Shown piece after piece: positions 5,788-39,155 of a stretch of 58,578 nucleotides of DNA. Below the pieces are notes generated by a model that worked only from the letters and a program-made list of their open reading frames with translations, did no database searches and had not been told where the DNA came from. Position 1 is the first letter of the stretch. The number at the start of each line of letters is the position of its first letter. The DNA is taken from NCBI GenBank assembly GCA_001275005.1, contig JWZX01003310.1:1-58578 (forward strand). The letters are read 5' to 3'. This stretch comes from Chrysochromulina tobinii (lineage: Eukaryota). The position numbers were made by a program, and so were the translations under genes.

Positions 5788-8778
5788 CTACGGCGGAACG
5801 TCTCTCTGCCCTGCGGCATCGCCCTCGTCCCCGATCCCCATCCCCTCCTCCTGGGCCTGCTCTAGATGGCTCGCCTCGACCTCGTCGTCGGTGCCGTCCG
5901 CCAGCGCATACAGCTTGCCCTGCGGCAGTGCGAGCCAGGCGAGCGTCATCTCCGGCGCCGTGGCGAGCACTTGCACCTCCGGCGCGCCGGCGGCGTCCGT
6001 GATGGCGCCCGCATCGCGGGCAGCGGCGGCGGCCGCCGCATTCGCCGTATCGTTCGCCGTCTCGAGCGCGAGAGACGCTCCGCGAGCATCGAGTTTCGCA
6101 CAGCGCGGGCGAGCGAGCAGCCCAGCTGCCCCGCCGCCGATGGCTGCGTAGAGGAGCAGCGGGAAGCTCAGCATGCAATGAGGGAGGCAATCAGCATGCA
6201 ATGAGGGTGGCAATCATGATCACCTGCGTAGAGGAGCAGCGGGACTTCCGGGTAGTCCACCTCGAAGCTCAGGTCGTGTGACGCACCTGTGGGGAAGGGC
6301 CCGGGCGCCGTGGTGAGCACTTGCATGCTGGGCGAGGAGGCGGGTAGTCCACTTCGAAGCTCAGGGCGTGTGACGCACCGATGGCGGCCTGGATGGTACC
6401 GGAGAGCATCCCGTCACCTGTGGGGAAGAGGAGATGGCGCCGTGGTGAGCACTTGCATGCTAGGAGGGCAGGAGGGCACGAGGGCTAGAGAGCATCCACT
6501 CACCGCCCTCGGCGTCGACTGCCACCCATGCCACGACGGCGCTCCGAGCTGCCGGAGCACCGAGCATGCTTGTGCTCGCCACGGCGCTCCGAGCTGCCGG
6601 CACTCCGAGGTGCCGCCGGACGCGCCGGCCGCGCACGCGCGCCTGCAGCTTCACTGCCGCGTCGGTCTGCTCCTGCTCCGCCTCCGCTGGCGCCGGGTCG
6701 ATGGATCCGCCGCTGTGAACGCCGCTGTGAACGCCGCTGCTGTGAACGCCGCTGCTCGATGGATCTGCCGCGGCCGCGCTCGAGTGCGTCGCGCCGGCGC
6801 CAGCTCGCCCACCCTTTGGTCCAGCGCCATCGGGCAGCAGAGAGAGCGAGAATCCGCCCGCGCTCGCCTGATGAGGGACGCAATCAGACGCCATCAGACG
6901 CCATCAGACGCCATCAGACGCAATCAAGGGCGCAATCAGACGCAATCAAGGGCTCTCGAGAATCCGGCCGCGCTCACCTCGGTGCACGTGGCGCGCAGCC
7001 CCGTGTCGCCACCCTGGAGTGTGAACAGCAGGCACGGGGTGCGCTCGAAGGCATCGGCTCCCTCCTCGTCCGTCTCGACGTACCTGTGGGGAAGAGAAGG
7101 CGCCGTGGTGAGCACTTGCATGCTGGGGAGGGCAGGAGGGAAGGCATCGGCTCCCTCCTCGTCCGTCTCGACGTACCTGTGGGGAAGAGAAGGCGCCGTG
7201 GTGAGCACTTGCATGCTGGGGAGGGCAGGAGGGAAGGCATCGGCTCCCTCCTCGTCCGTCTCGACGTACATGTCGAAGCGGGCCGCATGCGTATCGCCCT
7301 CGGCCAGAGCGGTCTCCCCGGCGATCAAGCGCGCGCCTGTGGGGAAGGGCCCGGGCGCCGTGGTGAGCACTTGCATGCTGGGCGTGGAGGCGGGGCGAGC
7401 GGTCTCCCCGGCGCCCAGGCACGCACCTGAGGAGGGAGATCATCAGAGGCAATCAGAGAGGTCATCCGGTCTCCCCGGCGCCCCGGCACGTACCGCCATC
7501 GAGCGTGTGCGCGCCGGCCTCCAGCACGAGGTATGCGATCGTCACGTCCATCCCCGCGGGAGGGACCAGCTGCAGCGTGAACGAGGTGCTGTTCTTAAAG
7601 GGCACGCACACGACGCTCGACACGGCGCCGCTGGCCCATCGAGCCTTCTCGACGCCCGACACGGCGCCCGAGCCCACCGAGCTGAAGCCAAGGGCCGCCG
7701 CGCCTCCGCGCGGCGCCGTGGGCGAGTGGGGCGAGGGCGAGGCGGAGCCGGGGCGCGTGGGCACGACGCATGCGAACACGACGGGCTCCCGGTACTGTAA
7801 CTGCAGGCTCACCTGATGAGTGAGGCAATCAGCATGCACTCAGAGGCAATCACGCAGGCTCACCTGCTTCATGCCGCGCGTCTGATGAGTGAGGCAATCA
7901 GCATGCACTCAGAGGCAAGCACGCAGGCTCACCTGCTTCATGCCGCGCCCAGGTACGTTGACGGTGCCGGCCTCGCCCACTCCCGCCATCGCCGACTCCT
8001 CGGCGCTCACGCTCGCCATGCCGGCGAGCGCCTCGAGACCGACGGCCGCCACGTTCCCGTCCTCGTCCAGCAGCGCCAGCTCATCGTCTGGCGCCTCGTC
8101 CGCCTCGTCCTCGTCCGCCTCGTCCTCGTCCTCGTACCCGGCGCGAGAGGCGGCGGCGGCGAAGTCCGCACCGCCGCCGCCGCCGCCCGTGCCGCCGCCG
8201 CCCGGGAGCAGCATGCCGTGGGCCCCAAAGAGCGCGCCCGCGCCCGTGCCGCCCATGGTCGGATCCGGCACGACCATGCTGCCCGCATCCACCGCGCCGC
8301 CGCCGCCGTCGTGCGTGAGGCCGAGGATGCCGGCGAGCCCTCCGCTGGCCGCTGCACGCGGCAGCGGCAGCGCGGCGGTCTTGGCCATGAGCTCCTCGAG
8401 CGCCGCCGACATTCGCTGGTTTTGCTCCTCCTGATGCCGCAGCGCGTTCGTGAGGATCATAGTCCGGTGCTCGAGCTGCGCGACACGCATGTCCAGCTGC
8501 TTGCAACGCTCCTCGCAGCGCTCGCAGTTTCGGCCTGGGTGACTTGCAGGTGGCGCGAGCCGTGCGGCCGCCGAGCTCTCGTACAGGGCCGCCACGCTCC
8601 GAATGTGCGGCGGCGCCGACAGGTTGCCGTACTTGTTGAGCAGCTGCACCTTTGCCTCGGGCGACAGGTACGAGCTGGTGCCCTCCTGGAGCGCGGGCAG
8701 CTGATGCGGCCGGCGGTACGAGGAGGTGCCGTCCTGGAAGCCGGGCGGCTGATGCGGACGCCGCTGCGATGGGTCCAT
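5788..8778 (-). CDS. Hypothetical coiled-coil / IQ-motif protein (about 719 aa, 8 exons)
   Basis: Exons 8778-7933, 7812-7494, 7336-7270, 7083-6978, 6867-6504, 6417-6379, 6286-6224 and 6143-5788 sum to 2160 nt in one continuous frame. IQ-like motif AAVKLQARVRGRRVRR. Confidence 0.8.
6144..6223 (-). mobile_element. Family-2 duplication intron (80 bp); AG supplied by the duplicated upstream exon
   Basis: GTGATCATG...TGATTGCCTCCCTCA... followed by a 21-bp exact copy (6144-6164 = 6224-6244) ending TACGCAG. Confidence 0.85.
6287..6378 (-). mobile_element. Family-1 duplication intron (92 bp)
   Basis: The first 38 bp (6341-6378) copy the downstream exon 6249-6286 with 2 mismatches, followed by GCATGCAAGTGCTCACCACGGCGCCCGGGCCCTTCCCCACAG. 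Confidence 0.9.
6418..6503 (-). mobile_element. Family-1 duplication intron (86 bp)
   Basis: Starts GTGAGTGGATGCTCTC versus exon GTGACGGGATGCTCTC; ends with the family-1 cassette CCCCACAG. Confidence 0.88.
6868..6977 (-). mobile_element. Family-2 duplication intron (110 bp)
   Basis: Starts GTGAGCGCGGCCGGATTCTCG versus exon GCGAGCGCGGGCGGATTCTCG; 10-mer TGAT(T/G)GCGTC repeats; ends CCCTCATCAG. Confidence 0.88.
7084..7269 (-). mobile_element. Two abutting identical 93-bp family-1 intron units
   Basis: Units 7177-7269 and 7084-7176, each a 37-bp exon copy plus cassette, joined at CAG|GT. Confidence 0.8.
7337..7493 (-). mobile_element. Compound intron: family-2 unit (7427-7493) stacked on a family-1 unit (7337-7426)
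   Basis: Three copies of ...CGCCGGGGAGACCG and an internal CAG|GT. Removing all 157 bp restores LDGG|ARLIAGE. Confidence 0.85.
7813..7932 (-). mobile_element. Compound family-2 intron (units 7864-7932 and 7813-7863)
   Basis: GTGAGCCTGC is duplicated, there is an internal copy of the upstream exon end GCGCGGCATGAAGCAG, and it ends CTCATCAG. Confidence 0.85.
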
Positions 8779-9001
8779 GAAACACTGGCGGTGTTGTGCT
8801 GCAGCCGCTACGGGGCGGCCACGGCTGTAGCGAGTTGTGGCATGCAGAGCGGTTGACGCTGGCCGTTTGCGCTATGCGCGTGTTAGGTGCTTCTACAATT
8901 AGAAACCCTGTCTCTGCGACGAACCGCGGGCAGTTCGAAGTTGCATGTGTTTCGTCAGGCTCTGTTTTCTACATCAATGTGTCATCACATCTCGTGTAAA
9001 G

Positions 9002-12821: not shown

Positions 12822-15800
12822 CTAAGGCTTCTTCTGCCCTTCGAGCAAGAAGAGGGCGACGCCACGCCAGTAGCAGAAGGCGGGGTGCTCGTACTGAGCG
12901 ACTCCGAGCGTCGGGTTGTAGTACATCGGAGCTTGCGCGCCCGCCACGGCGCCCGACGGCTCAGCAGGCGCCTCCAGCCACCCGAGGGGCAGCCCCGAGC
13001 ACACGGCCGCCGACGCTAGCCACAGAAGCTGAGGGTGCGTGCGCAAGGGCACGCCAAGATACACAGAGGCCGCGTGGAGCTCGTGCAACGAGATTGGGCG
13101 GATGCCGAGGGCGGCTATACGCGCCTCGAGGCTCGCCGTGCACAGGCGCGCCGCGGCGGCGTCGGGTGGCTCGCCCGATGCACGCAGAGCCTCGAGCGTC
13201 TCGAGAGTGAGCGCCTTGGCCGACGGCTCCTGCTGGAAGGGTGGCATGATCTCGCTGCTGATGAAGGGGCAATCAGGCAGCGCCTCCTCCAGACTGGTCG
13301 TGCGCTGTCCGCTCACCATGTTGATGAAGGGGCAATCAGGCAGCGCCTCCTCCAGACTGGTCGTGTGCAGGCCGCTCACCATGTCGACGAGCCACGTGCC
13401 GCCGAGAGAGCCGCCCTGGCGAGTACTAGAGCCTTGTACCAGTGGGGAAGTGCCGGCGCGTGCCGCCTCTGTGATCGGTTCCGCTGCCGTTGGGGATGAC
13501 GCGTCGGCGCGTTGGCCGGTAGGGCTACCGGCACGACGCTCGAGCGCGGCGCCGTTCTGGGCGGCGCCGTTCTGGGCGGTGGCGGGGGCAGAGCCGTCCG
13601 CGAACCCTTCCGCCTCGGGCGGCGGCGCAAACTCCATCCAGCGCAGGTGGAGCAGCTTCGCGTTCGGAGGCTCTTCATGGAACTTTCGTGGTACTCGCTG
13701 GTATGCCCGGAGCAGAGGATGCACCGCGCTTATGGCGCCGCTGAGCGTGTTCTGATAGCCCTGTGGACTTTGCTTCCAGGGTGGCGGTAGCGGCGCCGCC
13801 GCAAAGGCGACTGCGCACCAGAGCTTGGGCACATCCGTCGGCATCGAGGGCTTCAGAGAGTACCTATGAGGGGAAGAGAGGGCGTCGTGGTGAGCACTTG
13901 CATGCTGAGGAGGGCAGGAGGGCTTGAGAGCGTACCCGAGGGCCTCGGCTGCCCGGCGCACGTGCGCCGGCTGCAGGGGTAGCTGTATGGCAGCGGGCGC
14001 CAGGCATAAGAGGGCGCGCAGCTCGCCAAGGTGCCCCTTGAGTGGACGCGAGCTCTGGAGGAGAGGCGTTGCGATCGTCCCCTGCGCCGGATGTGCCCAC
14101 GGCGACGCTTGCTCTCGGGTCAGCGCCGTGGTGGGCACTTGCATGCTGGCCCGCGGGGGCGACGCTTGCTCTCGGGTCAGCGCCGTGGTGGGCACTTGCA
14201 TGCTGGCCCGCGGGGGCGACGCTTGCTCTCGGGCCAGCGCTGCCGCGGCGGCCGTTGCCGCCTCCACGGCCTCCGCCTCCACTTGCTTCGCAGCGAGCGA
14301 GATGGCGAGCGCGAGAGCGCGTCGTTGCATCCGAGCCTTGCGACACACCTGTGGGGACGTGAGGGCGCCGTGGTGAGCACTTGCATGCGGGGCGAGAGCG
14401 CGTCGTTGCATCCGAGCCTTGCGACACACCTCGACGTAGACTGAGCGTCGCCAGCACACGGGCGGCGGCGGCGGCGGCGGCGGCGGATGCGTGCGCGCCG
14501 TCGTGGGCAGCGCGAGCTCGGCCATCGAGATTGAGCCCGCCAGCCGATGGCACAGGCGCCGCGCCTGCTTAGCCATGGTCGCCGCCGGGCGCAGCGCCGC
14601 TCGCTCCGCGACCACCGAGGCCAACTCTGCATGCAAACGGGGAGGCAATAGGGAGGCAATTAGGGAGGCAATTAGGGAGGCAATTAGGGAGGCAATTAGG
14701 GAGGCAATTAGGGAGGCAATTAGGGAGGCAATTAGAGTGGCACTCACCTGCATGCAAATGGGTCTGCAGCTCGTCGAGGGCGTGTGGCTTGTACTCGAGC
14801 ACGCCGGCGCGCTTGCGCCGGACGCACTCCATGAATGTATGGGTGCCTCGTACCTATGTGGGGAAGAGCGGGCCCCGTGGTTAGCATTTGCATGCAGAAA
14901 CGCACTCCATGAATGTATGAGTGCCTCGTACAGGTGGGTTTAGCCCTGCGCAATTAGAGGGGCAATTAGAGGCAATTAGAGGCAATTAGAGGCAATTACC
15001 GGTGGGTTGAGCCCTGCGCAGTAGAAGCAGATCTGGCTGAGCGTTGTGGTGAGCGCTCCTCCCTCGGCCTCCGCTGGCTGGCTGCTCACGGCACGCGTCG
15101 CCTCGTTGGCAGCACCAGTAATGGCGTCGGACCCCTTGGGGACGCCTCCCCCCTTGGGGTCGCCTCCCCCGCTGGTGACGCCTCCGCTATTGGGGACGCG
15201 CCCCGTTTTCACAAGTGCATCCGCTTCGGCCTCGAGGCGAGCCAGCGTCTTCTCGGCGTCCGACGTGTTCAGCCTGAGTTTCTTTGCATCCTTGATGGTC
15301 TTCTTGAGCACGTCAATGTCAAGATCACCAGCTGCAGCAGCCGCAGCCGCAGCCGCAGCCGCACTGGACTTTGCCGCGCTCGCCCGGGCCTTTGCCGCGC
15401 GCGCCGCCGACGAGTGCGACCCCATCCGAAAGTTCCACTCGCGGTCCACGCAGAGCTCCGGCCGGTTGGGTACCTGTGGGGAGGGGTGAGGGCGCCGTGG
15501 TGAGCGCTTGCATGCCGACGAGCAGCACCCCATTTGGACGCAGGGCTCCGGCCGGTTGGGTACCGGTATTTCGTCCCACTTGGAGAGCTCGTCGCTCTGC
15601 TCGATGACGTGGCACACGGCCAGCGCCGCCCGCCGCGCCTCGAGCAGCCCAGCACGGCGCTGCTTGAGCTCCGATGATCTCCGAAGGGTTTCGTCCACCG
15701 CGTCCATCTGCTCCTCGAAGAGCCGTTGCGCCGCCGTCGGCTCGTCTTTTGACGAAGCCCGCCGTGCCACGCGCTCGACGCCGGCGCCCACGAGCACGCC

Positions 15801-18800
15801 ACCGGCGCCGCCTTGGGCACCATCCAGCGCGCCGCCTCCGGAGCCGCCGAGCTCGTAGCTGGCTTCGTCAGCCGCCTCCTCGCCGGCGCTCGGGCGCTCG
15901 TCACGGCGCGCATGCAGCCACTCGATGGCGCCACGCGTATAGAACCATCGCTGGGTGGATCCACGAAGCGCGAGGCGTTCCACGTCGAGGGCGGCAAGGG
16001 CGGCTGTGGCTTCTCGTGCCTCGGTGCGCGCGTCTTCGAGTGTGCCCTGGAGGGTAAGGGTAAGGGTAAGGGTAAGGGTTTGGTTTAGGGTTAGCGTCCT
16101 CGAGTGTGCTCTGGAGCGTAGGCGACGCTTCGATGGCGGCGCGTGAGAGGTCATCACTAATCATCACAAGCACTCCAATGATACTCGGAGCTCATCGTTG
16201 GCAATCAAGGGCTAATCAAGGGTGAGCGTGGGAGGTCATCACTCATCGTACCTGGAGCGTTGGCACTTCGGCCGCGACGGCGAGGTGGGCGGGACGGACG
16301 GAGATCACCTCGAGATTGAGCTTCGCGACCCCGAGCTCGCGCGAGGTTGTGGCAAGAGCCTGCATAGCCATGAGCACGGCGGTCATCAGAGCTACCCAGA
16401 GGGGCAATGAAGGTCATCACTAGCAATCAAGGTCATCACTAGCAATCAAGGTGATCACTATCAATCAAGGTCATCACTATCAATCAAGGTCATCACCTCC
16501 GGCTCGAAAGAGTTTGTCTTCCCCACCTCGCCGGTCATCAGACGCATCAGCTCGTTCACCGCCTCCACGGCCGCCTCCGCCGGCGGCTCCACGCTCTCAT
16601 CAGTGCTGGACGCGACGCTGCCGAACCCTCTGTGCTTGGTCGCTCCCGGAGAGTGCACGGGCGAATGGACTGGTGACGTGGCCCTCAAGGTCGGTGACGT
16701 GGCCCTCAAGGTCGGTGACGTGGCCCTCAAGGTTGGTGACGTGGCCCTCGAGAGGAGGGCTGTGGGGAGAATCTGCACCGTGAGCAGATATCGATCTCGG
16801 GCGGGCTGCTTCACCTGTGGGGACGTGAGGGCGCCGTGGTGAGCACTTGCATGCGGGGCGAGAGCAGATATCGATCTCGGGCGGGCTGCTTCACCTCGGC
16901 GATGCGCAGCCAATCATATGCAATCAGACGCAATCAGACGCAATCAAGGGCGGGCTGCTTCACCTCGGCGATGCGCAGCGTCACAAGGTGAGCATCCGCA
17001 TGCCACCAGCCGAGAAGGTCAGCCACGCACACATGGCCGACGCTGTCGTCAAAGGCACGCGTGATGGCCTCGCTTTGACGTCGCCCGGATGCCGCGAGCA
17101 GCAAGCTTGCCTCGGCCTCGACACGCCTCACCAGAACCCGGGATGGCAGGCCCGCGGCATAGGCCACACAGCGGCGCAGAAAGTCCTCGCGCTCCGTCAG
17201 GGCGCGCAGCCGGGCGCGCTCGCCTGATGAGGGACGCAATCAGACGCAATCAGACGCAATCAGACGCAATCAGACGCAATCAGACGCAATCAGACGCAAT
17301 CAAGGGAGCTTACGGCACACGAGCGCCGCCCGGAGGGCCGCCTGCCGTTGCATGCGCAATCTCGAGAGCTCGAGATCGAGATCTCGCCGCCGGAGCTCAG
17401 TGAGCAGCCGCAGCGCGCCGAGCGACTGGCCGGCGCGCTCGAGGGCGTCGTGCTGAGCGCCGTCGGACGCGCCGTCCGCCTCGTCGGCGCTCGGGACGGC
17501 GCCGTCCGCCTGCAGCTCGGCCAGGCGCGCGCGCGTCTGGGCCGCGCGCTCGTCCAGCGCCGTGCTGAGCGCCGCGCCGCGCGCCGTTCTGGGCACATCG
17601 AGTTCGAGCAGCTCGGCGAGGAGCTTGTGGCGTGCGCGCTCCATCTGTGGGGAAGGGGGGGGGCGCCGTGGTGAGCACGTGCATGCAGGGCGGGGGCGTC
17701 CAAGCAGCTTGCGGCGCCGTGGTGAGCGCGCGCGCCGCTCCACACCTGGTTGCTCTCCTCCGCGGTCGAGAGGGCCGCCGCGTCGGCCAGCCTTGCCACC
17801 GCCTCGGCCTCGACCGCACGCAACCGAGCCCGGAGCGCTGGAATGATTCCCCACAGGGCCTCGACCGCCGGAAAGCGAGCCGCGAGCGTCGACGCGCACT
17901 CGGCGATGCCGCGCAGCTCGGCGGCGTGGGCGATCAAGGTGTGGGCGGCCGCATGGGCTGCGTCGAGCTTCGAGGCGAATAGCATCGAGGTGGACAGGGC
18001 GGAGGTGGCGGCGGAGAGGCCGGGAGATCGCACCTCGTGGCTGAGCATCTTCGCCTCGATCTCGGCTCGGAGATCGCGGAGCTCGCGAAAGATCTCGTCG
18101 TGCGGCGCCGAGATGGGCGCCGAGTTAGGCGCCGAGTTGGGCGCCGCTATGGCCTCGGTCCTCTCGGCGAGCGTCGTCCTGAGCGCCTCGCACAGCTGGA
18201 GCCGCGCCCCGAGCGAGCTCAGCTCGAGATCGCGCTTTTGACGAACCTTGCGCGCTGCACTGATCTGCCTGCCGAGGGCCGCCGCTGCCGCCCCGGGTGG
18301 GGGCACCGCTCGCCCGTCGACGAAGACGGTGGCGCCCGAGCGCGCGCCCGCCGCCGCCGTCGCCGATCGGATGACCGTCCCCTTCCATGCGCCGCTCCGC
18401 TGGCCCTTGGGAGTGGCGTGACGGGAGTCGCCGAGGGAGCTACGGTGGGCCGTTGGGCTGCCGCTACGGTGGGCCGTTGGGCTGACGAAACGGTCAGCTG
18501 ATGGGCTACCGGGATGGCTGCTCGATGCGCCGCCCGCGCCTCCGTCGGGGTCGGCGCTTCCCCCGTCGGGCGCTCGGCGCGGCGCGAGCCCGATCGATGC
18601 ATGCACGCTCTCAAGCTGGTGACTCGCCACTTCCCACAGAAGCTCCCGCAACGCCGCCCAACCCATCCGCTGCCGCTCCGCCGCGCGCAGCTCGAGCCAC
18701 GGGCCCGTTGTCCCACCTGATGATGCATGCACTCATGATGAGCGAGGCAATCATGATGAGGGAGGCACTCAGGATGAGGGAGGCAATCATGACGAGGGAG

Positions 18801-21800
18801 GCAATCATGACGAGGGAGGCAATGATGATGAGGGAGGCCATCGGGTGCTCGAGCACAAGCCCATCGTCCCAGCTGATGATGGAGGCAATCACGATGAGCG
18901 AGGCAATCAGGTCGTCCCACCGAGCACACGTGCAAGGAGCGCCTCCTTGGCCGCCGACACGGCGCGGTACGCGCGGTACGCGCGGGCGATCGTGAACACG
19001 GCGAGCGCCTCATGGCTGAAGACATTCTTGGCCTTGGCGATCGTCTGCTCTTTGAAGGCGCGGCGTGCCGCCTTGCGCTCCTCGGCCTTCTTGCGCGCCG
19101 TACGCCGGCGCACGACGGCTTGCATTGTGAGGCACGCTTTCCGGCGTAGGTACGCTTGACGCTGGTAGCGAGGTGATCGGAAGAGGGACTGGAGCTTGCG
19201 CACGTACCTGTGGGGAAAAGATGGCGCCGTGGTGAGCACTTGCATGCTGGGGACTGGAGCTTGCGCACGTACATCGTCATGCGCAGCCGTCGGATGATCT
19301 CTTCATACGTCGCCTTCTTGGCGACGCCGGTGCGGTCTCGGCGGCGTGGTTTGGGGCGCGGGGGGTAGCGATCTGGGTGCGCGGCGAGGACCCGACGCCA
19401 CCAACGCTGAAGGATGCCCGCGGCGACGCCACGGCCGAAGCTGTCAGGCTCGGGCCGGCTAGCGCGGGGTCGGCAGACGGCGCGCAACGCGCGTGTCTGG
19501 ACTGTCCGCGCGGCAGCGTCGCGCTCGAACCAGCGCGCAAGCCGATCTCGCGCCGCCAGATACCGACCTGTGGGGAAGAGGTGGTGGGGCGCCGTTGTGA
19601 GCGTGCGCATGCAAGGCGTCGTTGTGGGCGTGTGCATGCAAGGCGTGGCTGACCAGCGCCGCCATAGAGGAGAAGCTCGGCCTCGAGGTAGAGTGTTGAG
19701 TCCAATTCGAATCCCGGGGCGCGCTCCGATAACGGCACCTGATGAGGGGTGAAATCAGGTGCACTCAGGTGCAATCAGGAACAATCATATGCAATAAGGT
19801 GCACTCAGGTGCACTTAATCAGGTGCCCTCAATATGCACTCAAGATGCACTCAAGATGCACTCAGTATGCACTCAAGGACGGCACTCAAGATGCACTCAA
19901 GGACGGCACCTCCCTCGGCCCCTTGGCGAGCGCCGTGATGAGCGCGGCGCTCGCCGCGTGCAGGCTGGCGGGAGTGGGGCGGAGCTCGTTGATCAGGGCC
20001 GTTGACGCCGCCCCAAGACGCATCGCCTCGATCAGAGAGTGGACGCACTTGTCGGTGTACGGCGGCAGCTCGTCGAGCGACACGGGCGAGAAGCGGCGAG
20101 AGGAGTTGTCACTGCCGCTGCCGCTGCCGCTGCCGGTGGCGGCGCTCCTCCTTCTTGATCGGCTCGAGGTGGCGCGTGCGGCGGCGGCGCTCCGGACAGC
20201 CACGCCTGTGCCCTCCACCAACGCCTCCTCCTCCTCCTCCTCGTCCTCGTCCGCGTCCTCGTCCTCGTCGTCGTCCGCCTCGTCGATGGTCGGCTGATCG
20301 GACGCCCACAGCGGGCGCAGCTGCTTCGGCTGCGTCCAGGCAAGCACCATCGGGTCCACATCGAGAGGCAACGGGAGCCATGGACGCGTCTTCGTGAGCG
20401 CCTCGAGCGCCGCGCGCCCCTCTGTCAGCGCCGCGCCTCGCGCGTCCGCGGCGACCCGCTGAACGCGAGCACTTGCATGCATGCGCACGGCGACGCGCAA
20501 CGCGTACACGCTCGCCTCGGTGCTCGCTTTTCGCTGCTCCGTGACGGCTTCCACCACCGCGGCCGCGGCGAGCCGAAGTTGACGAATCCTATCGCCGAAC
20601 TCGCACACGTGCCCCGCACGCACCGAGGCGCCCAGCCAGGCGGTGTGAGCGGAGGCGACGCCTCTGCTCACGTATGGAGTCGTCCGGTCGCCGATGGCGC
20701 GCCGCGCGCGTGCAATCGAGCCGAGGCGGGCACGCAGCTGCTCGAGCTGCGCGCTGTGAACAGCGAGGGCGTCCGCCGTGCGCTTCCGGTGTGAATCGAG
20801 ATTCGTCAAGAGGTCTTCGTACGCGAGATCGTTTCTGACGAGATCGGCGAGCTCCTTTTCGGGCTCGTCCCTCATGGCGGCGGCTAGCAGCCGGCCGCTG
20901 CGTGCAAAGCTCGAGAGCACGTCGCTCTCGGCCTCGCCGTACCTAATTAGGGAGAGAGAGGGGGGCGCCGTGGTGAGCACATGCATGCAAGGCAGGTCAT
21001 CAGTCGCTCTCAACGCCTCGCCGTACCAGGCGTCTGGAACGGACGAGGTGCCACTCCCTAATTTGGAAGAACCAGACATGCCTAATTTGGTTCGCGACAT
21101 GGCCGCCGAACCGCTGACGCCGCCGCTGCCAGCGTCAGGGTTCGCTGGCGGCCGTCGGCCACTTGGCTGAGACGACGGGCGGCGGGACGCCGGGCGGTGC
21201 GGCACCGACGAGGAAGCGCCAGAGAGCGTCAAATGCCAGTCGTCGATGCCGCCGCCGCCACCGCCGCCGACGTCCTCGATGCCGCCGCATCCGGCGTCGA
21301 GTGCCGAGAAGGGCCTGGAATGGGCGGAGCGACGTGTCAAGCGCATCGCAAGCTCGCGGGAGGACCGCCTCGCATTGCCGTCGAGGGACGGCAACCAACT
21401 CGAGTACACCTTCGCAGCGCGCCCAGTGTTGTAGCTCGGGATCACCGACGAGATGCCCCCATTCCGCCTCTCGGAGATTGCCATCTCATCCCGCCTCTCG
21501 GAGATTGCCATCTCATCCCGCCTCTCGGAGATTGCCATCTCGGAGCGCGCGGAGCCTCGGCCCGCGGACGGTCGAGGCGCCGTGCTGCCGCCGCGCCAGC
21601 CGGAGCCGGCGGCGCCAAACATGCCCTCCCCAGACAGTCGATCGAGGGCGATCAGGAGCGCCGGCGCGGGGCTCGGGGGCATGAGAGGCGGAGCGCCCGA
21701 GCTGGCGAGCTCGAGGGCGAGCCGAGCCGAGCCAGCGAACGGGGAGCCGGCGAGGACGGAGCTCGAGATGCAATCTCGAACGGCGAGGACGGAGCTCTGA

Positions 21801-22843
21801 GTCACTGGGCGAGCTGTCGAGGAAGCGGCGGCGCCGCTCGCCATCATCGAAGCCTCGGCGCGAGATTGCATCTGCGAGGGCGGTCGAGATTGAATCTGCG
21901 AGGGCGGTCGAGATTGCATCTGCGAGGGCGGTCGAGATTGCACCTGCGAGGGCGGTCGGCGGCCGGCGAACGAGCTGCTCAGCACGGCGCTCGCGCGCAT
22001 TTCGTGAGCCGTGATTGCCTCCCTCATCAGGTGCGTGCTGCCGCCCGCGTGCACAGTCTCGCCTTCCTCAAAGGCCGGCGGCTCCGCCGCCACCGCCGCC
22101 ACCGCCGCTGCCACCGCCGCCATCACCGTCTCCGCCGCCATCGCCGCCACCGCCGCTGCCACCGCCAACGCCTCCGCCACCGCCTCCTCCTCCGCCGCCG
22201 CCACCGCCGTCCGCGCGTCGAAGCCCTTTGGTAGGACGACGGCGATTGAAGGACGGAGGCTCCGCCATGGCCACGACGGAGGCTCCGACATCGACGCGAG
22301 GTTCGCAGCTGCCACGAACGCGCCGGCGCCGGGCGTCCCACCCGTCCCATCACCGGTCTCCTCTGCAGGCCAATCGCCGTGCGGCCAGAAGAGATCGCTC
22401 GGCGTGTACGACGGCTGCGTGCTGCGTGCAGCGCTTGCAGCGGCGAGGCGCACGCCGTAGCGAGGCGACGGCGGTGCGCTCATCACGCCCGGAGGCGCAG
22501 GTGGCACGACGGGGCTATTGTAACAGATATCAGACCGACCCATCAGCAGTCGTCGTCGAAACACGTGGTCCGGCATCGGCGCTGGCGCGGCACTTCTTGT
22601 CGTAGTTAACAAGAGCGCGGCGGGCACGTCGATCGACCCGACATGGAGCGCGTTCCGGTCCGCGCTCGCCCAGCCCGTCGTCGAGGTTGGCTGCTGCGGC
22701 ATGGCCAAGCCGAGCTGCTCCCGCTGCCGCCGTTCCGCGACGAACGAATTCACCTCGGCGAGGTCCTGCGTCGCTGAGAGAAGCGCGGATCGGCGCCGAG
22801 GACGAGCGAAAGACTGAGGGACAGGGAGGGAGTATTGCACCAT
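12822..22843 (-). CDS. Giant IQ-motif / coiled-coil protein with two C-terminal CEP164-like WW modules (about 2750 aa, about 16 exons)
   Basis: Exons 22843-21027, 20942-19910, 19738-19654, 19567-19273, 19207-18921, 18716-17746, 17644-17314, 17223-16964, 16814-16478(?), 16391-16252, 16046-15564, 15473-15000, 14853-14748, 14626-14430, 14348-13936 and 13863-12822 are phase-compatible. The C-terminus YLGVPLRTHPQLLWLA...LPLGW...YYNPTLGVAQYEHP resembles the CEP164 N-terminal WW region. Also has IQ-like motifs and a CFYC...H...C knuckle. Confidence 0.72.
13864..13935 (-). mobile_element. Family-1 duplication intron (72 bp, in frame)
   Basis: 18-bp exon copy with 2 mismatches, plus cassette ending CCCCTCATAG. 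Confidence 0.8.
14349..14429 (-). mobile_element. Family-1 duplication intron (81 bp, in frame)
   Basis: 38-bp exact exon copy (14392-14429 = 14311-14348) plus cassette. Confidence 0.88.
14627..14747 (-). mobile_element. Family-2 intron (121 bp) with (TAATTGCCTCCC)n
   Basis: GTGAGT donor, 12-mer tandem array, and AG from the duplicated TTTGCATGCAG. Confidence 0.88.
14854..14999 (-). mobile_element. Compound intron: family-2 unit (14932-14999) plus family-1 unit (14854-14931)
   Basis: Contains a copy of the upstream exon end and a 32-bp copy of the downstream exon start. Removal gives GLNPP|VRGTHTFMEC. Confidence 0.85.
15474..15563 (-). mobile_element. Family-1 duplication intron (90 bp, in frame)
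   Basis: 26-bp exon copy with 1 mismatch, plus cassette. Confidence 0.85.
16047..16251 (-). other. Compound intron with a telomere-like (CCCTAA/CCCTTA) 3' tract
   Basis: CAG|GTACG donor, internal degenerate copies of both flanking exon ends, and CTAACCCTAAACCAAACCCTTACCCTTACCCTTACCCTTACCCTCCAG acceptor. Confidence 0.8.
16392..16496 (-). mobile_element. Family-2-like intron with (GTGATGACCTTGATTG..A)n; boundaries uncertain
   Basis: 19-mer tandem array. The frame is restored with donor 16477 and acceptor 16392, but not with the more obvious donor at 16496. Confidence 0.6.
16815..16963 (-). mobile_element. Compound intron: family-2 unit (16895-16963) plus family-1 unit (16815-16894)
   Basis: 33-bp exact exon copy (16862-16894 = 16782-16814), internal GAG|GT, and a 16-bp copy of the upstream exon end. 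Confidence 0.88.
17224..17313 (-). mobile_element. Family-2 intron (90 bp) with (TGATTGCGTC)n
   Basis: GTAAGC donor versus exon start GCGAGC; about seven 10-mers; ends CCCTCATCAG. Confidence 0.88.
17645..17745 (-). mobile_element. Family-1 intron (101 bp) with a doubled GCTCACCACGGCGCC
   Basis: CAG|GTGTGG donor and CCCCACAG acceptor; joins EESNQ|MERARH in frame. Confidence 0.82.
18717..18920 (-). mobile_element. Compound family-2 intron (204 bp) with 18-mer TGATTGCCTCCCTCRTCA repeats
   Basis: GTGGGAC is duplicated, an internal degenerate copy of the exon start lies near 18846-18872, and it ends CATCATCAG. Confidence 0.82.
19208..19272 (-). mobile_element. Family-1 duplication intron (65 bp)
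   Basis: 23-bp exact exon copy (19250-19272 = 19185-19207) plus cassette. Confidence 0.9.
19568..19653 (-). mobile_element. Diverged family-1 intron (86 bp)
   Basis: GTCAGC donor; GCATGCGCACGCTCACAACGGCGCC...TTCCCCACAG; frame restored on removal. Confidence 0.8.
19739..19909 (-). mobile_element. Family-2-like intron (171 bp) with TGAGTGCA repeats
   Basis: AG|GTGCCGT at both junctions; ends CCCCTCATCAG. Confidence 0.85.
20943..21026 (-). mobile_element. Family-1 duplication intron (84 bp, in frame)
   Basis: Copy of GTACGGCGAGGC..GAGAGCGAC plus GCATGCATGTGCTCACCACGGCGCC...TAATTAG. Confidence 0.8.
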
Positions 22844-27870: not shown

Positions 27871-28632
27871 ATGCCCCGGCCGATTTTCACTTACTTCGAC
27901 TTTGGAGGGCGCGCGTTTGCGGTCCGCGCCGCGCTGTTCAAGGCACTGGGCAAGGACGGGTGGGAGGACGAGCGCATCGACGGCCCGACGTTCGCGCGTC
28001 GCAAGGCTGCGGGAGAGCTTCCGCTCGGAGCGCTGCCGATGATCACGCTACCTGACGGGCTGAAGGTGTCCCAGTCGACTGCTTTGGCGCGTTGGGCCGG
28101 CCGGCAGTCAACTCTGTACCCTACCGACCCGACCGCCGCGCTGATCGTCGACTTCGTCATGGAGACCGCCAACGAGATCCTTGGCAAGTCACCGACGTCG
28201 AAGGATCCGGACGAGAAGAAAAAGGCACGAGAGGAGTACTCGCAGTCGGGGTTCATGTTCCGCGCGATGAGCGCGCTGGAGGCGAGATACGACGACGCGA
28301 GCGGCTTCTGCACCGGCAGCCTCACGATCGCCGACCTCGTTCTGTACGGCGTCGTCGACATGGTGCTCACGGGCAACTTTGACTATGTGCCTCCCTCGTA
28401 CATGCTGGCCCACTGATTGCTCCTGATTGCACCTGATCACTCCTGATCGCTCCGGATTGCTCATGGTAATCTCTACGGGTCTCTCTGATGGCCTCCCTGA
28501 TGACCTCCGTGATGGCACCTGATTGACTCCCACATTAGGTACATGGATGGCTACCCCAAGCTGCTCGCGATGCATGCGGCGGTCAAGAGCGACCCACTGG
28601 TCGTCGCGTACTTTGCAGAGTACAAGGACTGA
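27871..28632 (+). CDS. Glutathione S-transferase (sigma-class-like, 206 aa)
   Basis: FTYFDFGGRA, LPLGALP, VSQSTALARW and LTIADL. Exons 27871-28397 and 28539-28632. Confidence 0.92.
28398..28538 (+). mobile_element. Older family-2-like intron (141 bp)
   Basis: GTACATG is duplicated at the exon start; degenerate CTGATTGC repeats; removal completes the GST C-terminus. Confidence 0.85.
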
Positions 28633-30343: not shown

Positions 30344-31524
30344 TTAGTCAGTCGCCTTAGCCTCCATTGCATGCAAGGCGCTGGTCTCGCCGTGAACCGC
30401 CTCGTCTAACGAGAGGCGGCCGGGTCCGAACACCACGAGCTGCAGCAAGGCACCGGCGGTGGACCACTGTTGGAAGAAGAAGTAGCGCTGGTGCGTCGCA
30501 TAGACCCACGCGGGCACCACAGCACCTTCGAAGCCAATCACCTGACGACGGACGCAATCAGACGTCATCAGAGGAGCCATCAGATGCAATCAGGATCGAG
30601 CACCTTCGAAGCCAATCACCTCGTCGAGCGTGTAGTTGCGATCGGACCAGAGAACGACATACCAGGGATGTGAATAGAGCGCCGCGAACAGCGTCACCAC
30701 CGCAAGGATGAAAGCGCACCTGATGAGGGAGCCAATCAGCATGCACTCAGAGAGGCACTCAAAGGCCATCCTCATCGAGCGCGTCACCACCGCCGCGAGG
30801 AGGATGCGAGAGCCGCCTAATGAAAGGGAGGCAATCAGCATGCACTCAGGATGAGAGCGCGCGGCACCAGCGCGATCTCAATCCAATGACGAGCCAGGCG
30901 GTGAGCGGGAGCAACATGACGAGTAGAGCGATCTCCGTCATCGTGGCGGGCAGGTTCTCATGGGTGAATCCGTCGTTCAGCGCCGCGAACCGCTCGCGCG
31001 CCATCTTCTGCGCATAGAAGAGATAGAGAGCCGACAAGGCAGCAGCGGCCTGCTAGCTGCAGGCGATCCGTCTCGGTCTGGCGCTCCTCTTGCGACACGA
31101 CGGGCAACGCGCTCGAGCGCAGCGTCGCGCGCGTGCTCGACAGCAGGATGAGTAGGCCGCCGATGATGGATACTTCCTCGACGACAAACTCTGTGTTGCG
31201 CTGCTGCTGGTAGAGGAAAGGATGAGCGGCGCTCCAGGAGATCAGCACGACGCAGCCGATTTGCACGAACCGCGCCTGCCCGGAGAGCACGAGGCCGGCG
31301 CCGATGCCCTGCACCGCGCAGAAGAGCGCAGGCAGGATGGAGGACGCTGGTTCGCCGAATCCGACCGTCCGCATCGAGTCTGCTTGGCCAGTGTAGTCAC
31401 TGGCGATACGCACAAAGTCGTCCACGAAGGTACCGACGATCAGCGCGCGCGAAAGCGCCTGCAAGGGCCGCCACGTGCGCTTGACATGGGGCTTGTCGAG
31501 GAGGGAGGTGAAGGCCTGCGCCAT
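30344..31524 (-). CDS. SURF4: SURF4/Erv29 ER cargo receptor (one apparent +1 frameshift near 31038)
   Basis: RALIVGTFVDDFVR, SIIGGLLILL, LQLAGR and YFFFQQWSTAGALLQLVVFGPGRLSLD. Exons 31524-30868, 30719-30620 and 30541-30344. Confidence 0.85.
30542..30619 (-). mobile_element. Family-2 duplication intron (78 bp)
   Basis: 21-bp exact exon copy (30599-30619 = 30521-30541); ends GATTGCGTCCGTCGTCAG. Confidence 0.9.
30720..30867 (-). mobile_element. Compound family-2 intron (units 30817-30867 and 30720-30816)
   Basis: Two TGAGTGCATGCTGATTG cassettes and two degenerate exon-start copies; frame restored to RW|CAFIL. Confidence 0.85.
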
Positions 31525-31932: not shown

Positions 31933-34628
31933 TTACCTACGATCTCGCGGCGACGAAGCCGTATGTGGCTTGTACTCGAGGCCCATCGCTTGCAGCGTGC
32001 GTGTAAGGGCGTCCGCCCGCGCGAGCGATTGCGGCGTCGGCGGCGGCGTCGGCGGCGGCGATGACGTTGTCGACGACGTTGACGACGGCGGCGAATGAAG
32101 CGGCTGCGGCAGCAAAAGCGGCGGTAATCGCGGAGACTCTCCTGGGATGGTCGTCGCCATCGCCTCTGCGTGCCTAGGAGGTGAGCGAGGTGGCAAGTTC
32201 ATTTCGAGCTCGCTTTCCGTGCCGTAGCTGCTCCCGTTAGAGGGGATGCCAGGTCGAGCAATAAATTGGTCCAGGTGGCCCATGGCTGAGGACGCCGCGG
32301 CCCGCGAGGGGGATGCCGCTCTCCAAAGTGGTGCCGCAGCGCGCGAAGGCTCTGGCGGGCCCGCGGCTCTGACAACGGCTGACATGCTTTGGGTGGAGTG
32401 CGGGGCGGCGCCCCCGGCAGCGATCGCGAGGGCGGCACTGTCCGTAGGCAGAGGTGCACTGTCCCGAGGCGGACCGGTACCCCTCGGCCTCACTGTCGCT
32501 TTGAATCGGGAAAGTAGGATCTGACGCCTAGATCGCTTATCAATCGGCACCATCTCGACCCCCAACGCATCCGGCCCAGGCGCCCTCGCTGCCCTAACGG
32601 GCCGAGCAGTACTCGCGCCCGTGTCCTCGACGTCAATCGGGTCCGAGGCGTCGTTCCGAGCAGTACTCGCGCCCGAGTCGTCGACGTCATTCGGGCCCGA
32701 GGCATCGCTGGTGCGATGCCCGTCCCTCAAGTGGTCCCCGTTTTGTGACTCCTCTGGGGGAGTAGAGTTCGGGTTAGGGTTAGGGTGGTCCCCGTCTTGT
32801 GACTCCTCTTGGGGAGTCGAGTTCCTCGAGTAGAGGGCGTGGAGGGCGAACGATCGCTCGTACTTGAGTCGCTCCTTCTCCCGTGCGAGCTGAGCGTTGC
32901 GCCGGTGCGAGTTCCTACGCGCACACCCAACAGCCAAGCACGATCGGTCAGTGAAGCCAAGGACGGTCGGTCAGTGAAGCCACCGGCGCGTGCTCATTCA
33001 GCTTCAAAAGGCACAGGGAAGGCTCACCAGAGCAACAGTGCAGACACAGTGAGGACCGAGGCCGCGAAGGCCAACGAGGCGCCCAAGACGGCGTAGTTGT
33101 CGTCGAGTGGGCTACCCTCTCTCGTGGGCGCTGTGCTGGGCGCTGTCTGGGGACTCGGAGGTGGACTTGGAGCGTCGGGCTCAAAGTCCGGGAACGGCAC
33201 CAATCCCGTATCCTTACCAGGCACAAGTGAAGCAGCGAAACAGGTGGGTTTGTCCGCATGGAGGGACAGCGCCTTCGAGCCGAACGACGCGTCGCCCATG
33301 AAAGTACCGCTCACGAGCACACGTCCACTGCCGGTGTAGTGTGCGATGCCAAGGCCGTACCGGAAGCCTGGTTCGCTGGACGTGCTACTAGCCCGGACAA
33401 CCCAGTCAATCGCGCCCGACGCCGTCACGTGCGTCACAAAAGCGTCGTAGGCGTTGTTGTCCGTAACGTATTCGTACATTTGAAACCACGCCGTGCCAGC
33501 AAAGGAGCCGATCACGAAAGCGCCGCCCACGCCATCGTGCGCGATGCCGCGGCCTTCGTCGTTGGACGCACCGCCCGCCTGTATGGCCCAGTCGATGACG
33601 CCCGATGCCGTCACGTGCATCACGAAAGCGTCGGCGTTGCCGCGGCTTACAAGCGTCGTCGAGCCGAACGAAGCCTTGCCCATGAAGTCGCCCGTGACGA
33701 GAGCACCCCCTGCGCCATCCTGCGCGATGCCGTGCCCATGGTTTGAACCCATGCCCCCCGCCTGGACGGCCCAGCCGATGGCCCCCGACGCCGTCATGTG
33801 CATCACGAAGATATCTAACGTGCCGGTGCTCGCGAGTGACGTCGAGCCGAACGATGTTTCGCCCCTAAAGTCGCCCGTCACGAAAGCACCCCCAGCGCTA
33901 TCGTGCGCGATGCCGTAGTACTCGATGCTGTTGCCTGCTTCATCGAACTCGCCGCCCGCCTGGACGGCCCAGTCGATGACGCCCGACGCTGTCACGTGCA
34001 TCACAAAGGCGCCGTAACTGCCGCGGCTTACGAGTGTCGTCGAGCCGAACGAAGCATTGCCCCTGAAGTCGCCCGTGACGAGAGCACCACCCATGCCATC
34101 TTGCGCGATATCGTAGCCATGGTCTGGGCCCATGCCGCCCGCCTGCACGGCCCAGTCGATGGTCCCAGACGCCGTCACGTGCATCACGAACGCATCGTAC
34201 ACGAACCCTGAAGCTTCGAGCACGGTCGAGCCGAACAATGCCTTGCCAGCGAAGTACCCTGCCACGAAAGCACCCCCGGCGTCATCAGACGCTATGCTGT
34301 AGCCTACGCATTCGGATTCTCCACCAGCCTTCACACCCCAGTCAATTGTGCCAGACGCCGTCACGTGCATCACGAAAGTGCTCATACTCCTGCTGGATAG
34401 GAGGGACGTCGAGCCGAACAATCCCTTATCGCTGAACCAGCCTGTCACGAAAGAACCGCCTGCGCCATCGGGGGCGATGGTACTGCCAGAGCCGGCCGAC
34501 TGGACAGCCCATGCGGGAGCCTGGACAGCCGTCGTCGCGGGAGGTTCCAATCGTACGGGTGGCGGAGGCAGCGGCACGGTTTCTGGTGGTTGCACGAACA
34601 TTAACGGCACCATCATGAGCACGATCAT
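31933..34628 (-). CDS. Type-I membrane protein with SBBP-like beta-propeller repeats (about 860 aa)
   Basis: About 7 repeats of DGxGGxxVTGxFxGxxxFGSTxLxSxG.DxFVMHVTASGxIDWxVQAGG, a TM helix, intron 32915-33027 (GTGAGC...CTGAC...TAG), then a low-complexity tail. Confidence 0.8.
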
Positions 34629-34734: not shown

Positions 34735-34772
34735 CTCAAGTTCAAGTTCAAGTTCAAGTTCAAGTTCAACAA
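34735..34772. repeat. (TCAAGT)n microsatellite between CTCCCGCGCTCA direct repeats
   Basis: Directly visible; adjoins an AT-richer non-coding block to about 35100. Confidence 0.75.
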
Positions 34773-35152: not shown

Positions 35153-36381
35153 TTATCGAGCTGCACCATCTCGCCTGCAACCCCGCCATTGCTGCGAGAG
35201 GCGCCCGAGCCCGCAGCGAGTGGCCGCTGCCGGCGCCGAGCGGGTGGATCGCATGGGACTCGGCAGGCAGCCACTCGGCAGGTAGCCGCAGCCGCTTGGC
35301 AGGTAGCCAGCCTCGGCCTCGTCATGCGTGTCCTGCCGGTACGGTAATGATGGGGGCCAGCTGCTGCACTCTGCCTGCCCACCGCCGCCGCTGCCAGCGG
35401 CAGCAGCGTGCAACGAATGGATGAGCGAATGGCTCGCGCCACGTCGCCCATCACCACTCCGCCTCGCATGCATGCATGCATGCTCACGTCGCCCATCTCC
35501 ACTCCGCCTCGCATGCATGCATGCATGCTCAAGCGATCGCTGTGTCTCGAGTCTCTCCAACTCGTCTAACGGTTCGTTCTCGAACCGCTCTGCTGAGGAG
35601 GCCCCCGAGCTGGATGAGGTGCCATTGCGGGCCTCCACCTGGTCGAGCGCATCGCCGCCACCATCGCCCTCGGCAGTGGCGTTGTCGTGGGCGAGGCTGT
35701 GCCAACCGCCTGCATAGCCGCTGTTGCCGTACGCCGGAAGCCGGCCCTCTTCGTCCACGGCGCCGCCGCCCGTGATCTCCGTCTCCGCCCTCCGCCCTCC
35801 GCCTCCGCCTCCGCCTCCGCCTCCCCCTGCGCCTCCGCCTCCGCCTCCGCCGCGTCCACCGCCTGCATGCCGTCGTCATCGCTGTCGTCATCGTCATCAC
35901 CGTCATCGCCGTCGCCGCTGCGGCCGTCGCCTGGCCGCCCGGCCGCTGAAGCGACGCTAGCGTCCGGCGGCGCGACTAACGGCCGGCGCGCCGCCTCCTG
36001 CATCCGGCGGCGACGCTCGCGCTCTGCTTGCTGTCGGCGCTCGCGCTGGTGGAGGAGCAGGTACCGCTCGCGTTCGGACGTCGACAGCCACGAGGAGCTG
36101 ACGAGCGGCGCACTGCTCTTCGGATCGTAGCGCTGCATCGCGCGCGCACTCAGCTTCCGCTCGCGTTGTCGCTCGTTGAGCCACTCTTTCTTCGCCGCTT
36201 CGGCGAGATCACCGCTCGGCGTGGGGGGTATTTGCTGAGACGCCGCGCGCAACCTGTGTCGCTGCGCCTCCGCCCACTCCTGCCGCCGCGCGGTCAGCCA
36301 CGTCTCCTTCTCGCGCGCCCAGGTGACATCATCGTACAACAGGGTCTCAACGTTCGCCGCGTCAGCCGAAGCGCGGCACAT
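35153..36381 (-). CDS. Hypothetical charged/coiled-coil protein with an apparent frameshift in a (GCGGAG)n tract
   Basis: Two overlapping ORFs join if two extra G bases near 35788-35797 are removed. Confidence 0.45.
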
Positions 36382-36573
36382 GTGTCCTCGCCGCGCTTTG
36401 ACCAATCATCGCGAAGGTCCCGCGCCCCTCCGTGATGTCAAACAAGTCAAGCCTTGTCAAGTCTCGTCAAGTGTGAACGTCAACACGACAAAGAACTGTG
36501 AAGCAAATCGCCGACGGATTCACGACATAGGAATTACGGAAGTTCCCGCGACCTCATCAAGTTGGTGTTCATC

Positions 36574-39155
<2,582 letters not shown>

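What the first reader, a model, noticed from the sequence alone, without database searches (positions are those of the whole stretch)
6144..38945. Candidate intron-generating system: long exon duplication plus a repeated half-intron cassette
Seen: about 30 introns share one design. A variable-length (about 7-39 bp) direct copy of the neighbouring exon supplies one splice site, usually the GT from a G|GT or G|GC site. A repeated cassette supplies the branch-point motif (CTCAC/CTGAT/CTAAT) and the other site. Excision is seamless and restores continuous frames, including in conserved proteins (CNNM, SURF4, GST). Spliced cassettes follow gene orientation on both strands, and no TIRs are visible. 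Established: Micromonas/Aureococcus Introners are whole repeated introns attributed to DNA transposons with short target-site duplications; Daphnia gains have short repeats around unique fillers; the tandem-duplication model needs no cassette. Inference: this hybrid (fixed AG end, variable other end, long variable duplication) fits target-primed or template-switch copying of intron ends into staggered breaks. I cannot confirm that it is undescribed.
Basis: partly seen in the sequence, partly recalled or inferred. Interest (0 to 1): 0.93.

Follow-up and report, generated by a model that had tools for sequence, protein, structure and literature searches.

The report
Introns born from duplication plus cassette
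In the alga Chrysochromulina tobinii, most introns in five neighbouring genes consist of a 7-38-base copy of the adjacent exon plus a shared splice-signal piece, they are spliced out and two such inserts differ between strains, and they likely arise when broken DNA is patched with sequence copied from the ends of other introns, which would be a route to new introns that published surveys were built to miss.

Summary
Confirmed. The window is a Chrysochromulina tobinii contig. Of 30 modelled introns in five genes, 23 hold a copy of the flanking exon (12-38 nt, median 23; null 16 of 870 mismatched pairs), joined to one of two repeated branch-point/acceptor cassettes. RNA contigs show 9 of 12 examined introns removed. 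Independent assemblies keep them. One intron is absent, with a single exon copy, in a 98%-identical genomic contig, and another strain has an extra cassette insertion that the window lacks. This favours staggered-break repair with filler copied from other introns and filtered by splicing (0.5) over a retroposon (0.3). No TIRs, no fixed duplication length, no parent element in the window. A published Introner screen lists 0 families for this species, and the 2022 version of that screen requires similarity at both intron ends. The scan noted the same design before on another piece of this genome (e1-2577349).

The parts
6144..6223 (-). Intron, reverse type: B-unit filler starting GT, 21-nt copy of upstream exon supplies AG
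   Evidence: RNA joint in 2 of 4 runs
6287..6378 (-). Intron: 38-nt exon copy (36 match) + cassette A
   Evidence: RNA joint
6418..6503 (-). Intron: 16-nt exon copy + cassette A
   Evidence: RNA joint
6868..6977 (-). Intron: 21-nt exon copy + cassette B
   Evidence: RNA joint
7084..7269 (-). Two identical 93-nt units in tandem (37-nt perfect exon copy + cassette A)
   Evidence: no junction displayed
7337..7493 (-). Composite intron: exon copy + B, exon copy + A, removed as one piece
   Evidence: RNA joint of 157 nt
7813..7932 (-). Composite intron, two B units, duplication spans the donor
   Evidence: junction not displayed
13864..13935 (-). Intron: 18-nt copy + cassette A
   Evidence: RNA pieces stop at both ends with letters left over
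14349..14429 (-). Intron: 38-nt perfect copy + cassette A; last 51 nt identical to those of 16815
14627..14747 (-). Intron, reverse type: CTAAT-type B units, 15-nt upstream-exon copy supplies AG
14854..14999 (-). Composite intron: B units, then 32-nt copy + cassette A
15474..15563 (-). Intron: 26-nt copy + cassette A
   Evidence: RNA piece ends fit
16047..16251 (-). Composite intron with B-like units and a telomere-like CCCTAA/CCCTTA run before AG
   Evidence: telomere motif recalled
16360..16496 (-). Intron of B-like tandem units, no clear exon copy
16815..16963 (-). Composite intron: B filler with duplication spanning the donor, then 33-36-nt copy + cassette A
17224..17313 (-). Intron: short diverged copy + cassette B; 33 nt across the acceptor identical to 6868
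17645..17745 (-). Intron: diverged copy + cassette A
18717..18920 (-). Intron: 10-nt copy + many B ends
19208..19272 (-). Intron: 23-nt perfect copy + shortest cassette A (42 nt)
19568..19653 (-). Intron: diverged cassette A, internally duplicated, no clear exon copy
19739..19909 (-). Intron: 7-nt copy + long B array
20943..21026 (-). Intron: 12-nt copy + cassette A with TAG end
28398..28538 (+). GST intron: 7-nt copy + B array
   Evidence: ORF 206 aa; Pfam GST_C_3 matches on both exons
30542..30619 (-). SURF4 intron 2: 21-nt perfect copy + cassette B
30720..30867 (-). SURF4 intron 1: composite of two B units with diverged copies
37417..37604 (+). CNNM intron 1, composite B; shared with L007 and L008
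   Evidence: absent from L002
37784..37856 (+). CNNM intron 2: 23-nt perfect copy + cassette B; EMPTY SITE in genomic contig L008
37959..38059 (+). CNNM intron 3, reverse type, 30-nt upstream-exon copy; shared with L008
   Evidence: absent from L002
38328..38555 (+). CNNM intron 4, composite B; inner acceptor reads CG instead of AG
   Evidence: retained in L002; removal restores alignment to homologues
38784..38945 (+). CNNM intron 5, composite: B filler with duplication spanning the donor, then 32-nt copy + cassette A
   Evidence: absent from L002
35687..35715 (+). Empty site in the window: L007 carries a 66-nt insertion here (32-nt duplication + cassette A without its AG), antisense to the host ORF, in frame, no stop
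14103..14233 (-). Two 57-nt in-frame exonic units holding a cassette-A piece without acceptor (sense)
   Evidence: one unit lies inside an RNA piece
6564..6588 (+). Cassette-A-like piece antisense inside an exon of gene A, among local duplications
   Evidence: RNA pieces cover it
22013..22032 (+). Exact cassette-B end antisense and in frame inside the minus-strand ORF 19886-22843
13258..13383 (-). 63-nt exonic tandem units ending in a B-like end; frame stays open only if retained
32731..32824 (-). 40-nt duplication (37 match) around a 14-nt telomere-like filler, 54 nt in frame, no cassette
   Evidence: telomere motif recalled

Best explanation
These are recently gained spliceosomal introns, each a variable-length copy of the flanking exon plus a shared branch-point/acceptor piece, and they likely arise when a staggered DNA break is repaired with filler copied from the end of an existing intron. 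Shown: structure, splicing, presence/absence between strains, microhomology at one junction. Inferred: (1) nicks 7-40 nt apart give the duplication; (2) a break end primes on a few shared bases in another intron (DNA or unspliced RNA) and copies 35-160 nt, slipping in the 10-nt B units; (3) selection keeps only inserts that splice out (sense, GT and AG available from copy or filler), fall inside or across the donor of an existing intron, or stay in frame; (4) each survivor is a new template, so the cassettes spread without their own transposase; (5) donors then drift towards the U1 consensus, and the long repeats allow tandem doubling or precise loss.
For: 8 of 8 indels of >=6 nt between the window and L007/L008 are duplication plus filler, only 2 with a cassette; the other fillers are 0-6 nt or a hexamer run (read by eye). 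A telomere-like filler has the same footprint. Junction microhomology >=4 nt in 6 of 12 A units (5 of 11 counting the reciprocal pair once), null mean 0.43, p=0.0005. Insert length 42-164 nt and no common ends in 13 simple cases. The L007 insertion is antisense, in frame and lacks AG; both its copies share changes absent from the window, so it is a gain in that lineage. Three near-identical cassette pairs (48, 51 and 24+9 nt exact); the last continues 9 nt into both downstream exons. All 5 introns without G at -1 have A at +3 (7 of 25 otherwise, p=0.006); 9 of 9 non-neutral donor differences favour the consensus, 4 of them forced by requiring GT. Staggered breaks yield tandem duplications with occasional templated inserts (PMC5730883, passages) and are invoked for Daphnia neointrons (PMC4202315, passages).
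Against: Mantel and nearest-neighbour tests for local copying and for shared exon starts were not significant in either family (14 A, 11 B; p 0.06-0.99). 5 of 12 A units have extra filler with no donor in the window. A 25-nt conserved A core across many copies is more uniform than random repair filler would predict and suits a master element. Variable duplication, variable 5' end and junction microhomology are also hallmarks of target-primed retrotransposition (own knowledge). Short duplication-plus-filler indels could be microhomology deletions. No genome was available to look for a parent.
Confidence: 0.5

Rival explanations
1. Cassettes A and B are short non-autonomous retroposons inserted by target-primed reverse transcription; the exon copy is a long target-site duplication and the element's 3' end happens to be a splice acceptor.
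For: Variable 7-38 nt duplications, variable 5' extent, 5' microhomology; conserved A core; summed DNA-contig depth over cassette bins in the thousands against about 40 for single-copy bins (the tool warns this is no copy number); about 5% of classified Introners are non-LTR, including a Pavlovales family that carries the 3' site (PMC12130899).
Against: No poly(A) or fixed tail; 3' ends vary and the L007 copy stops before AG; B fillers lack a common end; the same footprint without cassette in 6 of 8 strain indels; no RT domain in 18 window ORFs, no Rfam match in 5900-22100.
Confidence: 0.3
2. The intron positions are old; the shared ends and exon copies come from later gene conversion between introns and from tandem duplication at existing splice sites.
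For: At least 9 introns are composites; 7337 has a cassette nearly identical to that of 6287 but a diverged exon copy, which suggests refreshing of an older intron; CNNM introns 1 and 3 are shared with L008.
Against: Empty site in L008 and new insertion in L007; CNNM sites 1 and 2 are uninterrupted in 5 of 5 distant contigs checked and site 4 in at least 4 of 5, including L024 and L081, which have introns elsewhere in the gene; perfect 21-38 nt copies.
Confidence: 0.12
3. Classical DNA-transposon Introners (MITE-like) with short fixed duplications, later blurred.
For: Marine Chrysochromulina MAGs carry many Introner families, one with 4-bp TSDs (PMC9860276).
Against: No TIRs in 13 of 13 simple inserts; duplication length 7-38 nt even among perfect copies; no end-to-end similarity.
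Confidence: 0.05
4. Assembly artefact.
For: The window has single-base errors (31038, 31552, 35788, 35795) and departs from three other assemblies after 39977.
Against: L004-L006 match 26570-39977 at 99.93% including all 8 introns there; L007 and L008 share some inserts with SNPs; RNA contigs skip them at GT-AG.
Confidence: 0.01

Closest known systems
Intron gain by staggered double-strand-break repair, Daphnia pulex (PMC4202315 passages; PMC3443670 passages)
   Same: Polymorphic new introns, direct repeats from staggered breaks, repeated secondary events giving mosaic introns.
   Different: In Daphnia possible sources were reported for only a handful of new introns (four in that study, one earlier) and the repeats are described as short; here the filler is one of two repeated splice-signal cassettes and the repeats reach 38 nt.
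Introners that carry the 3' site and co-opt the 5' site from the TSD: Symbiodinium, Polarella classes 4/5/6/8/10 (bioRxiv 10.1101/2020.10.14.339549, parts 1-2 of 4; PMC9860276 passages)
   Same: One splice site from the duplication, the other from repeated sequence; seamless excision.
   Different: The classes whose TSD I read have fixed 3-8 nt TSDs, the Symbiodinium ones TIRs, and Introner calls need similarity at both ends; none of that holds here.
Haptophyte Introners in the 2025 catalogue: Emiliania huxleyi fam24 ('10bp terminal direct repeats', co-opt 5' carry 3', 5 copies) and Pavlovales fam1 (non-LTR, co-opt 5' carry 3', 7 copies) (PMC12130899 supplement rows)
   Same: Haptophyte, donor co-opted, acceptor carried, longer direct repeat noted.
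   Different: Tiny families, sequences not seen by me; C. tobinii itself is listed with 0 families. They may be the visible tip of the same process.
Tandem genomic duplication model and RT template-switch intron transposition (PMC3443670 passages)
   Same: A duplicated exon segment supplies splice sites; copying from other introns has been proposed.
   Different: Tandem duplication needs AGGT and no cassette; intron transposition copies whole introns without long duplications.
SINEs and 5'-truncated LINEs (own knowledge)
   Same: Variable long TSD, variable 5' end, microhomology.
   Different: No tail, no constant 3' end, no partner element seen.

Membership tests
Introner (definition of PMC9860276) | Family of introns similar to within 10 intronic bases of both ends | tested here: not met
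   5' 7-38 nt are site-specific; similarity confined to the other end
Introner (definition of PMC9860276) | Creates new spliced introns in exons | tested here: met
   RNA joints; empty site in L008
DNA-transposon (MITE) Introner | Terminal inverted repeats | tested here: not met
   13 inserts, longest end match 3-7 nt against null means 3.3-4.0; the one 7-nt case lies in tandem units
DNA-transposon (MITE) Introner | Fixed short TSD | tested here: not met
   7-38 nt
Fungal introner-like elements | Stable RNA secondary structure | tested here: not met
   8 of 8 introns folded, z -0.8 to +1.2; feature from the search listing of PMC3609843
Non-LTR retroposon (SINE/LINE fragment) | Variable TSD and 5' truncation with microhomology | tested here: met
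Non-LTR retroposon (SINE/LINE fragment) | Constant 3' end with poly(A) or simple-repeat tail | tested here: inconclusive
   11 of 14 A introns end CCCCACAG, but no tail, 3 TAG variants, and the L007 copy ends earlier
Non-LTR retroposon (SINE/LINE fragment) | Autonomous RT partner sharing the 3' end | not testable with these tools
   No genome held; none in 18 window ORFs
DSB-repair intron gain (Daphnia type) | Direct repeats flanking a polymorphic insert | tested here: met
DSB-repair intron gain (Daphnia type) | Unique, non-repeated filler | tested here: not met
   25 of 30 end in cassette A or B
DSB-repair intron gain (Daphnia type) | Dependence on end-joining enzymes | not testable with these tools
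   needs mutants or mutation-accumulation lines

The most novel reading that the evidence does not exclude
A self-propagating intron factory without a transposon: the alga's break-repair (possibly RNA-templated, by a reverse-transcribing polymerase or telomerase) copies the 3' halves of existing introns into staggered breaks, splicing rescues the products, and these become the next templates, so that most introns of the genome were made this way and are still appearing and vanishing in natural populations.
Probability: 0.35. Interest if true: 0.93.

Novelty: new variant of a known kind. Interest (0 to 1): 0.8.

Why it matters
How new spliceosomal introns arise is a long-standing open question, and recent surveys credit transposons. 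Here a cultured alga with a 59-Mb, probably haploid genome (PMC4580454 passages) shows dense, spliced, strain-polymorphic gains with the birth footprint intact, of a design that the two-ended Introner screen excludes. It joins two models so far kept apart (break repair and copying from other introns), suggests that catalogues undercount such gains, and is directly testable by population sequencing and mutation-accumulation lines. It also matters for annotation: the public model of the CNNM gene lacks 22 conserved residues next to one composite intron.

Tried and rejected
No whole genome is held, so no genome-wide count. (16 kb, three RNA runs and one DNA run at 90% likeness) was swamped by cassette cross-matches: none of the 15 displayed joints of 321 was a splice; only piece ends are usable. 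Local-copying and shared-exon-start tests were not significant. Mismatch excess at donor positions 1-6 was not significant (12 of 120 vs 13 of 260, p=0.08). Cassette patterns: 1 hit in viral contigs (L001, at the contig end), 0 for B, 0 and 1 (taken as chance) in prokaryote genomes. Rfam: 0 matches; a hammerhead reading of the antisense B end was dropped. L007 ends exactly at the end of the 23-nt duplication and says nothing about that site. 13258-13379 was tried as an intron and rejected because removal shifts the frame. CNNM sites 3 and 5 lie in variable regions and cannot be compared with distant homologues. The one metagenome scan went to orthologues, so family breadth in metagenomes was not tested by me.
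Full report
Identity. The first CNNM exon matches at 100% a 587-aa protein that NCBI names for Chrysochromulina tobinii on a 58,578-nt contig. No whole genome is held.

Anatomy. Two repeated pieces recur. Cassette A is a core of about 25 nt containing CTCAC, a variable pyrimidine linker and usually CCCCACAG. Cassette B is a run of roughly 10-nt units containing CTGAT, CTAAT or CTGAG, often closed by CCTCCCTCATCAG. Reading CTCAC/CTGAT/CTAAT as branch points rests on the general consensus (own knowledge); no lariat data were seen. I modelled 30 GT-AG introns in five genes: 7 in gene A (5864-8778), 15 in gene C (12822-22843), 1 in GST, 2 in SURF4, 5 in CNNM. 18 of 30 begin or end with a copy of the adjacent exon (null 1 of 870) and 23 of 30 contain one (null 16 of 870); these 23 are 12-38 nt, median 23. 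In most the copy supplies GT; in three it supplies AG. At least nine introns are composites, several with a second duplication spanning the old donor. I saw only one other intron candidate in the window (about 24.6-24.86 kb), without RNA to make that list complete.

Splicing. In four RNA runs laid at 99% on 5850-8300, contigs join across five of seven gene A introns with CT..AC ends, one joint in two runs and four in one run each; two of the five have under 31 letters on the shorter side (30 and 28). Contig L002 is identical to the window in its exons, lacks four CNNM introns and retains the fourth; I infer it is a transcript. The five-intron CNNM model is 609 aa and aligns without gaps to close homologues at sites 1, 2 and 4. 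GST gives 206 aa; SURF4 gives an open frame in L004, the window having one surplus base at 31038. Gene C has no stop over 15 removals, but I chose its boundaries and one search shows only compatible piece ends.

Not an artefact, and recent. Three other assemblies match 26570-39977 at 99.93%. L008, which spans two divergent genes and keeps CNNM introns 1 and 3 (34 mismatches in 2105 nt), lacks intron 37784-37856 and has one copy of the 23-nt repeat. This could be the ancestral state or a precise loss between the repeats; an assembler skip is unlikely but unchecked. L007 (84 mismatches in 6866 nt) has a 66-nt insertion at 35692 that the window lacks: a 32-nt duplication plus cassette A without its AG, antisense to the host ORF, in frame and without stop. 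Both copies share changes absent from the window, so it was gained in that lineage. Five more distant contigs checked are uninterrupted at sites 1 and 2, and at least four at site 4; two of them have introns elsewhere in the gene.

Mechanism. All 8 indels of 6 nt or more between the window and L007/L008 are duplication plus filler, six of them without a cassette (read by eye), and an in-frame 54-nt insert at 32731 has a 40-nt duplication around a telomere-like filler. Unspliced, in-frame cassette pieces lie sense (14103-14233, 13258-13383) and antisense (6564, 22013, L007). At the junction between duplication and cassette A, 6 of 12 units share 4-8 nt with another A copy (null mean 0.43, p=0.0005). 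Three cassette pairs are nearly identical, one continuing 9 nt into both exons, but overall tests of local copying failed. Donor features point to selection: every intron without G at -1 has A at +3. No TIRs, no unusual fold in 8 of 8, no Rfam match, no RT or transposase domain in 18 ORFs. I therefore favour staggered-break repair with filler copied from existing introns and filtered by splicing (0.5). A tail-less retroposon (0.3) predicts the same duplications and microhomology and cannot be excluded without the genome. Remodelling of older introns explains the composites.

What is known. The 2022 Introner survey requires similarity starting within ten intronic bases of both ends (PMC9860276, passages); its Chrysochromulina example, from a marine MAG, has 4-bp TSDs and carries the donor; I saw about 64 of 214 Chrysochromulina places in its supplement. 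The 2025 survey lists C. tobinii with 0 families, but an E. huxleyi family with '10bp terminal direct repeats' and a non-LTR Pavlovales family that carry the acceptor (PMC12130899, passages and supplement rows). The Polarella classes I read have fixed 3-8 nt TSDs (bioRxiv 10.1101/2020.10.14.339549, parts 1-2 of 4). Daphnia neointrons are attributed to staggered breaks with few identified sources (PMC4202315, passages). Direct repeats of 4-30 nt near splice sites have been claimed generally (PMC11782384, passages). The genome paper mentions introns once in its main text, about one per gene (PMC4580454, passages). Reviews PMC3443670 and PMC11282704 and the repair study PMC5730883 were read as passages. 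Eight literature searches found no description of this design; the library lacks most subscription papers and I could not see the Introner consensus files.

Earlier notes. e1-2577349 reports a 15-bp-repeat intron on another piece of this genome and over a hundred relatives in metagenomes; I did not repeat that count. New here are RNA junctions, two-way polymorphism, antisense in-frame copies and cassette-free duplications.

Verdict. Real and recent; works like break-repair intron gain with a repeated, splice-ready filler; fails the Introner membership tests applied. New variant of a known kind, interest 0.8.

Noticed in passing
window 7768-7852: All four RNA runs hold a joint going back 85 nt (last 40 nt of the B intron plus first 45 nt of the exon, at a 5-nt microhomology), depth 21-37; in X16 the contig is 115 nt (85+30, as a cycle would give) while the rest of that exon is uncovered. 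Either a collapsed genomic array of one more duplication-plus-cassette unit or an abundant circle.
   Followed up: partly
window 39977 onward; L004-L006 13405 onward: Three other assemblies leave the window here and continue into a different coding sequence with two more B-type introns; the window may be misjoined between paralogues. No cassette hit occurs in the window after 38945.
   Followed up: partly
window 31038, 31552, 35788, 35795: Single surplus bases in the window relative to L004 and L007; the first shifts the SURF4 frame.
   Followed up: yes
L001 4370-4554: A phage-like contig ends in a 39-nt duplication with a tandem filler and a cassette A copy; chimera or algal copy of phage genes.
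   Followed up: no
window 34726-34777: Intergenic 52-nt insert absent from L007: about 12-nt duplication around an AAGTTC run.
   Followed up: partly
window 24590-24860: Probable intron of C-rich tandem units with CTGAC motifs, a third filler type.
   Followed up: no
window 38262-38327: The public CNNM model P0001 lacks 22 conserved residues that the window encodes before intron 4.
   Followed up: yes
window 4335-5819, 8945-10312, 33024-34628, 45800-47227, 47535-52304: Long uninterrupted ORFs (beta-lactamase-family hydrolase, RING protein, SBBP repeat protein, tRNA pseudouridine synthase, glutamate synthase) carry no cassette, while five genes carry 30 introns: gains cluster by gene.
   Followed up: no
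window 12057-12076: B-end-like motif between genes, no duplication recognised.
   Followed up: no
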